A stretch of 63,999 nucleotides of DNA, counting the filler, from Kipferlia bialata (lineage: Eukaryota), in the NCBI GenBank assembly GCA_003568945.1. It is 5 parts of 5 records of this genome, joined end to end, with 100 filler letters (N's around TTAATTAATTAA, not from the genome) between each part and the next. Parts side by side here need not be neighbours in the genome. Positions count along the whole stretch, not along the records: positions 48,311 to 56,608 come from BDIP01000657.1; 4 more parts are not named here. One strand, written 5' to 3'. The notes beneath the pieces were generated by a model, which saw nothing but the letters and a program-made list of their open reading frames with translations, made no database searches and had not been told where the DNA came from. Below, in pieces: positions 48,939 through 50,748 of this stretch. The translations under genes were made by a program, and so were the position numbers. Positions within the stretch are counted from its first letter, which is position 1; the number at the start of each line of letters is the position of its first letter.

Positions 48939-50263
48939 ATGCCACCCATTCAATGGTATGACCGCTGCGTTGTTGCCCTGCCTGAGATAACAGACAGACA
49001 CATGATGAGGGAGCGCTATGAGGCAATCTCTCTGGGCCATAACGAGGTTGTGTTGACCTTCGTCACTGCAGGCAATAGGAATAGGCTAACGCGTGCCTGG
49101 ACGCTTCTCACCCTGAATGAGGATCTCACCCTCTCGGAGACACCATTTGAGGTGCCCCCACCTCTGTTAAAGAGCGAGTCCGCTATGACTGTTTGCGAGC
49201 GGTGTCTGGTTGTGTACAACTACTGGGAGAGGGCAAATCTCTATGTATTCGACCTAGAGACTCGAGTCTGGGAAGCAATAGTCCCTTCTACCGATGTGGC
49301 GCCACCTAAGAGGCTGAGCACTACCCTAATAACCCTATCGGGGCGCCTCTTGCTGATAGGCGGTAACGACCTGTGTGACGTGTGGACATTCGACTTTGGG
49401 GCACGCCGGTGGATAGCGCTGAAATACAATATCGAGAGGCCACTGTGTTTCTGTGAGAAGCCGATGATCTTTGATCACTCCTGTTATCTCGTAGGATCAC
49501 GGGATGGAACCAAGAACAACTATGGCTTTCGCCTATCCGACTTCCATGGAAGGGATCTGACATACACTAACGAGGAGTCGGTCATCTCCACTTCCTCTGG
49601 TCTTCTGAGATACTATCATGCAGAGACGCATATAGGTGTAGGATACAGAAGGGTGATACTGAACGCGCTGATTGGTAGTCTTGGGGGGTTTCCCGATGCC
49701 CAGGTATATTCATATCTATATATACATATGCATAGATATAGAGATGTATTGGTCTGTTTTGTACATATATATGTATATATCTAGATGTGTTCAAGAATGT
49801 ATCTTTTACTGTCTATATAGATTTATAGGTATATGTGTATATCATCTGGCAAGTGCACATTTGCAATAGTGTTTATAGATGTATAGGTATACATATATAT
49901 CAAAGACCCATCTGTGTGATGTAGACGCTTATATATGTATTTAACATATATAAATATTACATCCATGTATATTGTAATACATTGCTATTGTACAAATGGA
50001 TATCTAATATCCAGGTGTCATGTAGACGCTTATACATATATATTAATAGTGTATGTACATATATGTTTAATATCCAGGTGTATGATGTAGTGGCGTGTCA
50101 GATTTCACGGGCCGAGAGCATTCCAGTGAGGTGTGGGGGATGGGGCAAGGGTGTTACTGCTGCTATGCTCAACCCCACTACAGCAGTGGTCGTTGGGTAC
50201 AGGGATGTGGTGGTGGTGGATATAGGTAGCCATTTACAAGTATCGGAGTTCTTTAGTGACTAG
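48939..50263 (+). CDS. Kelch-like beta-propeller protein (2 exons)
   Basis: Exon 48939-49703 plus exon 50078-50263. Kelch-type blades NLYVFDLETRVWEAI and PPKRLSTTLITLSGRLLLIGGNDLCDVWTFDFGARRW; ends ...EFFSD*. Confidence 0.75.
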
Positions 50264-50748
50264 ATAGTATCTAGTTGAGACTATCAACCATCAGATATAC
50301 ATATATAGAGATAGAGAAAGATACAGGGATGTGGTGGTGGTGGATGTGGGGTCACACTTACATACCGCCGAGTTCTTCAGTGACTAGAATGTATGTATCT
50401 ACGCTGATGATTCTACAGTAGATACGCATATTCTAGTCAGACTAGAATCTACTGTAGATTCTACTCACACCCATATTCACACCTATGTATATATATACCA
50501 CTTCAGTGGCTAGGAAGCTGTATATAGACAGAGCGCAGTGTAAGGATTCTCTGTGAAACTCGCCTAATCAGTCCTCTGAGGTCTGATTCGGACCGGCAGT
50601 ATCAGATGATTATCGTCTAAAGATGACAAAATGACCAGGGTCATTTTTGTCTCCTGCCCCCTTTAGTTCAAGATCGGTGACACCCAGGAGTCATACATCA
50701 TCTCTTCACCCAACACCCACCCACCCTCTCTCTGTCCCCATACACACC

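What the first reader, a model, noticed from the sequence alone, without database searches (positions are those of the whole stretch)
50198..50387. Stop-codon echo with an identical anchor followed by heavy coding-type divergence
The last 66 nt of the Kelch CDS (50198-50263, YRDVVVVDIGSHLQVSEFFSD*) are repeated at 50322-50387 as YRDVVVVDVGSHLHTAEFFSD*. There are no indels and the stop is kept. The first 24 nt are identical, then changes include ggt/ggg, agc/tca (Ser to Ser across codon boxes), cat/cac and ttt/ttc. No splice site is involved, so the process acts at the DNA level on coding ends. The identical inner anchor with a diverged distal part fits homology-initiated replacement from a paralog or allele.
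Basis: partly seen in the sequence, partly recalled or inferred. Interest (0 to 1): 0.75.

Follow-up and report, generated by a model that had tools for sequence, protein, structure and literature searches.

The report
Old allele scraps beside exon ends
In the free-living protist Kipferlia, nearly half of the exon ends examined have a short partial copy about 110 bases away that differs from the working exon mostly at silent codon positions; the copies are likely scraps of other alleles left by imprecise DNA repair, which would lengthen introns and keep a record of past genetic diversity.

Summary
The echo is real: 50198-50263 recurs at 50322-50387, 52/66 identical, gapless, stop kept. The gene is Kipferlia bialata KIPB_003431. 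A spliced RNA contig ends its reading frame on the first copy, with no joint into the echo. It is one case of a window-wide pattern: 108 of 242 exon sides carry such a copy (control 0 of 271), with the exon's start copied upstream and its end downstream, median offset 111 nt. Exon and nearest echo differ by 162 silent against 101 replacement changes (dN/dS 0.17, CI 0.12-0.22). Neutral decay predicts 1, and protection of the exon alone about 0.5. Echo splice sites are near-consensus yet mostly unrelated to their neighbours, and CT-repeat runs follow the inner break on either strand. Best reading (0.55): out-of-register repair between divergent alleles leaves the old exon end in place. No paralog was found, no donor allele was seen, and the 'anchor then divergence' trend is weak (P about 0.07 pooled). 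The ingredients are known; this density and coding-type divergence were not found in print.

The parts
48939..49703 (+). Kelch-repeat gene KIPB_003431, exon 1 (ATG to donor)
   Evidence: exact spliced mapping of P0001; Kelch Pfam hits
49704..50077 (+). GT-AG intron, holding short decayed copies of the exon-2 acceptor region
   Evidence: the RNA contig's loose end is the end of exon 1
50078..50263 (+). exon 2 to the TAG stop
50198..50263 (+). first copy: last 66 nt of the coding sequence, the end carried by the RNA contig
50264..50321 (+). 58-nt spacer (3' untranslated), ending in an AT/GA-rich run next to the echo's inner break; weakly similar to the 58 nt after the echo
   Evidence: covered by the RNA contig; flank printed; alignment score 4 vs shuffle mean -5.2, P=0.018
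50322..50387 (+). the echo: diverged copy of the last 66 coding nt with stop; likely the end of another allele
   Evidence: the RNA contig stops 6 nt into it
50501..50513 (+). possible second, more decayed stop echo one unit (126 nt) further on
   Evidence: seen by eye (12 of 13 nt match the echo's end); below the script threshold and not picked up by the scan
48724..48741 (+). start-codon echo, MPPIQW, with two silent differences; similarity starts at the ATG
48851..48861 (+). nearer, shorter start-codon echo (11 nt)
   Evidence: below the census threshold
50006..50018 (+). short acceptor echo of exon 2 (a second one lies near 49914)
   Evidence: below the census threshold
9726..9767 (+). example 5' echo in KIPB_003376: 6 differences, all silent, followed by a (CT)n run
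15587..15634 (+). second stop-codon echo in the window (KIPB_003376), preceded by a (GA)n run
3504..3554 (+). example 3' echo in a hand-curated gene, mostly silent differences
20023..20748 (+). series of six 3' echoes of one exon of KIPB_003380, divergence rising with distance

Best explanation
The echo is an untranslated-looking partial copy of the exon end, one of about 170 in this window, likely left when a DNA break inside an exon was repaired out of register using the other, divergent allele. Inferred mechanism: the chromosome breaks in coding sequence, probably the only part still similar between alleles. One end is extended on (or joined to) the homologous chromosome past the exon boundary, over the splice site, start or stop and some tens of bases of flank. 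It is then joined to the second broken end by alternative end joining, often with a CT/AT-repeat run at the joint. This leaves one whole working exon plus the displaced part of the other allele's exon about 110 nt away. Only events that run past the coding boundary would leave the gene intact, which would fix the polarity. Because both versions were coding in different lineages until they met, they differ mainly at silent sites. Later slippage or unequal exchange would multiply some units into series. Shown: the copies, their polarity, spacing, silent bias, flanks and CT runs. Inferred: the allele donor, the break and the join.
For: (1) Fixed polarity: 92 of 92 upstream copies lie in the exon's first half and 77 of 79 downstream copies in its second half; 0 of 23 introns with both kinds are interleaved. 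(2) dN/dS 0.17 over 108 nearest echoes (162 silent, 101 replacement; CI 0.12-0.22 by echo and by gene; wrong-frame controls 2.3 and 1.7). It is 0.20 in the three annotated genes and 0.12 in the hand-curated ones. In the annotated set the silent fraction 0.56 exceeds all 1000 simulations of neutral decay (0.25-0.27) and of neutral echo plus silent exon change (0.38-0.41). One stop in 1068 echo codons; amino-acid changes are milder than random (P=0.004). (3) Exon part and flank have different histories. Where the exon part has at most 1 mismatch, the intron flank is no more alike than random pairs in 12 of 15 (5') and 11 of 14 (3') cases, yet echo acceptors score 7.2-9.0 bits against 9.9 for real and -3.8 for random intronic AG. 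(4) A (CT)n run follows the inner break on the strand that ends there in 26 of 59 nearest 5' and 7 of 50 nearest 3' echoes (background 7.9% and 2.6%); 11 of 19 intronic GA runs abut a 3' echo. (5) Copies flank start and stop codons too (2 of 7 complete gene ends have a stop echo). (6) No paralog found. (7) Metamonads lack canonical NHEJ and are thought to rely on homologous recombination and alternative end joining (PMC8516963, passages); the genome is reported as probably diploid (PMC5874029, passages).
Against: No donor allele was seen. The RNA contig shows no variant, each protein cluster has one member, and two metagenome scans found no relative. The model needs very high allelic diversity: silent divergence 0.26 on average and 0.9 in the most diverged class. 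Flanks are less alike than that divergence predicts, so introns must turn over far faster than silent sites. The narrow offset range (10th-90th percentile 85-156 nt) is unexplained. The CT signal after 5' echoes is confounded by ordinary polypyrimidine tracts, and after 3' echoes it was 6 of 23 in annotated genes but 1 of 27 in the replication set. Distal echoes looked more neutrally decayed in the annotated genes (dN/dS 0.49) but not pooled (0.20). The anchor trend is weak. 70 of 121 exons and their frames are my own curation.
Confidence: 0.55

Rival explanations
1. Old same-chromosome tandem duplications whose exon part is refreshed now and then by out-of-register gene conversion from the other allele's exon.
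For: Explains near-identical exon parts beside unrelated flanks and the silent bias; some series have homologous spacers, so same-chromosome amplification happens.
Against: An old neutral flank should have lost its acceptor consensus, yet echo acceptors score 7.2-9.0 bits against -3.8 for random AG. Conversion from the adjacent exon on the same chromosome would leave dN/dS at 0.5 or more (inference). It needs the same high allelic diversity.
Confidence: 0.15
2. The echoes are under selection now because they are spliced into some mRNAs (alternative last exon here; hidden or nested splicing elsewhere).
For: Low dN/dS even at high divergence (0.15 at dS 0.9); splice dinucleotides kept in 43 of 49 and 39 of 42 nearest echoes; an in-register GT...AG would put this echo in frame.
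Against: The RNA contig runs unspliced through the first stop and spacer (a contig shows presence, not absence). In-register GT...AG occurs at 3 of 48 inner ends against 0-4 in shifted controls. Start-codon echoes and long exons with short echoes cannot rebuild an exon. Some echoes carry stops or indels. The three database gene models skip all echoes.
Confidence: 0.12
3. Plain tandem duplication across the exon boundary from the same chromosome or sister, followed by neutral decay of the copy while the exon changes only silently.
For: Explains polarity and spacing; the farther copy is the more diverged in 8 of 11 series (1 less, 2 ties); a known kind of event (PMC1557585, PMC4974935, abstracts).
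Against: Predicts dN/dS of about 0.5 or more; observed 0.17 (CI 0.12-0.22) and 0.09 in the least diverged class. Predicts flanks as alike as the exon part; only 7 of 49 and 6 of 41 flanks exceed the random 95th percentile.
Confidence: 0.06
4. Assembly artefact: two haplotypes of a diploid written in tandem by a short-read assembler.
For: Would give coding-type differences; the assembly is short-read SPAdes of a probable diploid (PMC5874029, section 7 and passages); joints lie in simple repeats; one exact repeat across an NNNN gap is such an artefact.
Against: The RNA contig continues from the spacer 6 nt into the echo. Series of up to six distinct copies exist. Joints are gap-free unique sequence and occur at 108 of 242 exon sides.
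Confidence: 0.05
5. The echo came from a paralogous Kelch gene, or is the remnant of a whole-gene tandem duplicate.
For: Coding-type divergence; start, acceptor and stop of the same gene are all echoed.
Against: No paralog among 503, 33 and 24 candidates (the last two were short queries, weak evidence). The pieces sit on both sides of each exon, not in gene order. The pattern holds in 12 of 13 gene models.
Confidence: 0.03

Closest known systems
Tandem duplications spanning an exon-intron boundary: human F7 IVS7 37-bp VNTR (PMC1557585, abstract); potato RdRp intron-exon duplication (PMC4974935, abstract)
   Same: A unit made of an exon end plus flank sits head-to-tail beside the exon, leaving pseudo splice sites; in F7 the first donor is used and the copies stay silent.
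   Different: Those are single loci. In F7 the pseudo-sites are identical in sequence, and in potato a new intron results. Here 108 of 242 exon sides are affected, flanks are mostly unrelated, and the exon parts differ at silent sites.
Repair-mediated duplication by synthesis-dependent strand annealing (Pace et al. 2009, PMC2671141, abstract)
   Same: Short, closely linked duplications made at break repair, including exons, UTRs and splice sites.
   Different: About 1,000 events in the human genome. The abstract reports no tie to exon ends and no coding-type divergence between the copies.
End joining and aborted gap repair between homologous chromosomes at meiotic breaks (Lukaszewicz et al., bioRxiv 10.1101/2020.06.23.168138, passages)
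   Same: Breaks on two chromatids can be joined into tandem duplications; ends of two homologs can join, with haplotype switches.
   Different: Rare events at mouse hotspots, mostly in ATM mutants; interhomolog joins were shown for deletions. No accumulated genome-wide signature as here.
Internal gene duplication and intron creation (Gao and Lynch 2009; recalled, not retrieved) and one-sided invasion with filler DNA in plants (recalled)
   Same: Partial intragenic duplicates; copying from one end only, then joining with filler.
   Different: Recalled only, not tested; I recall no report of fixed-polarity exon-end copies with silent-biased divergence.

Membership tests
Exon-junction tandem duplication (F7 IVS7 / potato RdRp type) | Direct repeat unit spanning the exon boundary, next to the exon | tested here: met
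   polarity 92/92 and 77/79, median offset 111 nt
Exon-junction tandem duplication (F7 IVS7 / potato RdRp type) | Copy homologous to its source along the whole unit, flank included | tested here: not met
   7 of 49 and 6 of 41 flanks above the random 95th percentile; 3 of 15 and 3 of 14 where the exon part is near-identical; Kelch spacer weakly similar, P=0.018
Exon-junction tandem duplication (F7 IVS7 / potato RdRp type) | Copy decays free of coding constraint (dN/dS about 0.5 or more against the exon) | tested here: not met
   0.17, CI 0.12-0.22; simulations
Exon-junction tandem duplication (F7 IVS7 / potato RdRp type) | Pseudo splice sites normally silent | tested here: inconclusive
   one RNA contig of one gene; database gene models skip echoes
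Repair-mediated duplication (SDSA type) | Short, closely linked, same-contig duplication | tested here: met
Repair-mediated duplication (SDSA type) | Repair hallmarks at the joint (filler or microhomology) | tested here: inconclusive
   strand-symmetric CT runs 26/59 and 7/50, confounded on the 5' side; microhomology not quantified
Repair-mediated duplication (SDSA type) | Pre-insertion (empty) allele or ortholog | not testable with these tools
Interhomolog out-of-register joining / one-sided invasion | The two copies descend from different functional alleles | tested here: inconclusive
   implied by dN/dS and by independent strong splice flanks; no allele observed
   P=0.17-0.54; 0.07-0.08 pooled, 0.017-0.10 for 3', 0.25-0.55 for 5'
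Alternative last exon / intron gain by tandem duplication | In-register donor and acceptor one unit apart | tested here: inconclusive
   present at 50197/50320, but 3 of 48 overall vs 0-4 in controls; the acceptor is purine-rich, unlike real ones
Alternative last exon / intron gain by tandem duplication | Spliced RNA joint into the copy | tested here: not met
   no joint; the contig covers 50074-50327 unspliced; low depth, contigs drop rare forms
Paralog gene conversion | A paralog exists as donor | tested here: not met
   only self hits; whole genome not searchable

The most novel reading that the evidence does not exclude
Kipferlia rebuilds its exon ends continually from very divergent alleles by out-of-register repair, so that its introns and UTRs are largely stacks of displaced, once-working exon ends with their own splice sites: a genome-wide engine of intron growth and a readable archive of extinct or unsampled alleles inside one genome.
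Probability: 0.45. Interest if true: 0.85.

Novelty: new variant of a known kind. Interest (0 to 1): 0.72.

Why it matters
If it holds genome-wide (the paper counts 124,912 introns), tens of thousands of exon ends would carry such copies. It would offer a concrete route of intron elongation and exon-end replacement in a lineage reported to lack canonical end joining, and let silent diversity and past protein variants be read from one genome. It also gives a natural test of how a reduced spliceosome (87 of 174 proteins searched, PMC6679479) ignores near-consensus decoy sites 110 nt from the real ones. It bears on whether Kipferlia's intron-rich genes reflect an ancestral state or ongoing lineage-specific dynamics, and it warns that gene predictors and short-read assemblers can be misled here.

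Tried and rejected
No whole genome is held, so no genome-wide census or paralog scan was possible. RNA: no listed holder is on record as RNA; reads were laid only on 50070-50700, so use of echoes in other genes is untested; X2 and X3 laid nothing (no evidence either way). Metagenome scans with P0001 and P0002 found no relative. The representative-protein search never ran. A first gene-finder run was too permissive and was dropped. The second recovered 44 of 49 annotated exons of its own training genes and was used only as a guide for hand curation. In one search the last exon of one curated gene was one base off; correct it, and the final numbers come. One search also dropped 3 of 105 echoes lying more than 16 nt from the exon edge; one search keeps all. 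One insertion event splitting an exon into two echoes was rejected: 5' and 3' echoes do not co-occur by exon (P=0.24) or intron (P=1.0), and echo length hardly follows exon length. Pairing of (CU)n with (GA)n around the exon at RNA level was considered and not pursued, as most exons lack one partner. Selection through occasional collapse of echo and exon was rejected by argument: a rate high enough to purify would not let silent divergence reach 0.26. Literature searches for the pattern returned nothing relevant (Kipferlia searches); only the held open library was searched. Earlier-finding look-ups by place, by Kipferlia words and by sequence were empty.

Full report
Observation. The 66 nt at 50198-50263 recur 124 nt downstream at 50322-50387 with 52 identities and no gap; the first 24 nt are identical and similarity ends at the stop. 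The protein search names the gene as Kipferlia bialata KIPB_003431, 316 aa, the only hit among 503 candidates, with Kelch-repeat matches. It maps as two exons, 48939-49703 and 50078-50263, ending on the first copy. One contig of run X1 (RNA by guess; same sample as the window) is spliced at that intron and runs without differences from 50074 to 50327, through the stop and spacer and 6 nt into the echo, with no joint. An in-register GT...AG pair could make the echo an alternative last exon, but the contig does not use it. Contigs drop rare forms, so minor use is not excluded.

The echo is one of many. A self-comparison of the window gave 190 short-range repeats after filtering. I mapped three database proteins to 51 exons and searched each exon against its neighbouring introns or flanks: 48 of 102 exon sides had an ungapped copy, against 0 of 271 exon x non-adjacent-region controls. 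I curated 70 more exons in 10 gene models, propagating the frame by exon length (no internal stops). Together 108 of 242 sides carry 170 copies. Upstream copies are of the exon's first half (92 of 92), downstream copies of its second half (77 of 79), and in 23 introns with both kinds none are interleaved. The nearest copy has median length 30 nt and median offset 111 nt. The Kelch gene itself also has start-codon and acceptor echoes, and 2 of 7 complete gene ends have a stop echo.

Divergence is of coding type. Over the 108 nearest copies there are 162 silent and 101 replacement differences (dS 0.26, dN 0.043, ratio 0.17, 95% interval 0.12-0.22 by echo and by gene; shifted frames give 2.3 and 1.7). 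The ratio is 0.20 in the annotated and 0.12 in the curated genes. A frame-free test on 98 repeat pairs in unannotated regions agrees: 40% of mismatch spacings are multiples of three against 32% expected. Neutral decay predicts a ratio of 1, and a neutral copy beside a silently changing exon about 0.5. Both were rejected in simulation on the annotated set (silent fraction 0.56 against 0.25-0.27 and 0.38-0.41, 0 of 1000 runs). Taken gene by gene in that set, only KIPB_003376 rejected the second null (P=2e-5; the others 0.11 and 0.12); the pooled set without it still did. At most about 0.04 substitutions per site can be later neutral decay. Gapped copies were not scored, and serial copies are not independent, so I rely on one copy per side.

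Flanks and joints. Echoes mostly keep AG (43 of 49) or GT (39 of 42), and their acceptors score near real ones (7.2 nearest, 9.0 distal, 9.9 real, -3.8 random). Yet their intronic flanks are mostly unrelated to the neighbouring real flank, even where the exon part is near-identical (12 of 15 and 11 of 14). Donor scores separate real from random sites poorly (5.9 vs 3.5), so the argument rests on acceptors. Reading past the inner break on the strand that ends there, a (CT)n run follows in 26 of 59 5' and 7 of 50 3' nearest echoes (background 7.9% and 2.6%), and the opposite run in 1 each. The 5' figure is confounded by polypyrimidine tracts, and the 3' figure was 6 of 23 in annotated but 1 of 27 in curated genes. 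The finding's own flank is a decayed run of this kind.

The anchor. A 24-nt identical start is unlikely for this echo alone (P=0.00065 per base; 0.006 per codon), but it was chosen from many. Among 27 testable nearest echoes of the annotated set (at least 24 nt and 2 mismatches) P=0.17-0.18. Among 49 pooled echoes without this one P=0.07-0.08; 3' echoes 0.017 and 0.10, 5' echoes 0.55 and 0.25. A weak 3' trend may exist; it is not shown.

Mechanism. Both versions must have been filtered as protein-coding for most of their separation, and each came with its own working-looking splice flank. Paralogs were not found, and hidden splicing has little support. That leaves alleles. I infer a break in coding DNA, extension on or joining to the divergent homolog past the exon boundary, and end joining with a simple-repeat run. 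Events that stop short of the boundary would break the gene and be lost. Metamonads lack Ku and DNA-PKcs and are thought to depend on homologous recombination and alternative end joining (PMC8516963, passages; its supplement was not read). K-mer counts suggest a diploid (PMC5874029, passages and section 7). The farther copy is the more diverged in 8 of 11 series, as expected if new copies arise next to the exon, but the higher dN/dS of distal copies in the annotated set (0.49) did not hold pooled (0.20). Weak points: no allele was observed, the needed diversity is extreme, and the narrow offset is unexplained. Confidence 0.55.

Comparison and novelty. Boundary-spanning tandem copies are known at single loci (F7, PMC1557585; potato RdRp, PMC4974935; abstracts), as are repair-mediated duplications (PMC2671141, abstract) and joins between homologs (bioRxiv 10.1101/2020.06.23.168138, passages). 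The case works like these, but fails two features of simple junction duplication: whole-unit homology and neutral decay. The genome paper's main text has no occurrence of 'duplicat', and searches found no description of the pattern; one search listed general intron-gain papers only (listing seen). Earlier scan notes describe similar echoes in a sea urchin and an annelid; the urchin note explained a silent fraction of 43 of 107 by protection of the exon alone. That explanation was tested here and does not suffice. Verdict: real, ordinary as a single echo, but part of a dense and apparently undescribed pattern; new variant of a known kind; interest 0.72.

Noticed in passing
window 44090-44149: In-frame 30-nt tandem duplication inside the last exon of a curated gene (SAFCCTVSVC twice) in a cysteine-rich, zinc-finger-like stretch; such a duplication stays within coding sequence.
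   Followed up: no
window 16290-29648: KIPB_003380 (1587 aa, partial) has motifs that I recall as kinesin P-loop, switch I and switch II, then coiled coil and MORN repeats; Pfam finds only MORN.
   Followed up: no
window 19811-20750: Six 3' echoes of the switch-II-like exon; neighbouring spacers look homologous by eye (unit amplification), and the two farthest copies change residues of the motif.
   Followed up: partly
window 17056-17097: Whole-exon-length echo of the P-loop-like exon with five amino-acid changes that keep a hydrophobic strand (CFLLVLVNGYTGS vs RILLIQANGVTGS), possibly an old functional variant.
   Followed up: no
window 16025-16124, 32141-32240, 48211-48310, 56609-56708: 44 N + 12-nt linker + 44 N spacers: the window is several separate contigs joined together; the echo pattern occurs on all five pieces.
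   Followed up: yes
window 42725-42830: Exact 51-nt repeat across an NNNN gap, probably a scaffolding artefact rather than an echo.
   Followed up: no
window 2357-2392: Echo with both an acceptor and a donor of its own (36 nt); the gene finder called it an exon. A candidate for real alternative use.
   Followed up: no
window-wide, 118 acceptors: A branch-point-like CTNAC motif lies within 22 nt of the AG in 71% of real acceptors, 56% of nearest echo acceptors and 9% of random intronic AG.
   Followed up: partly
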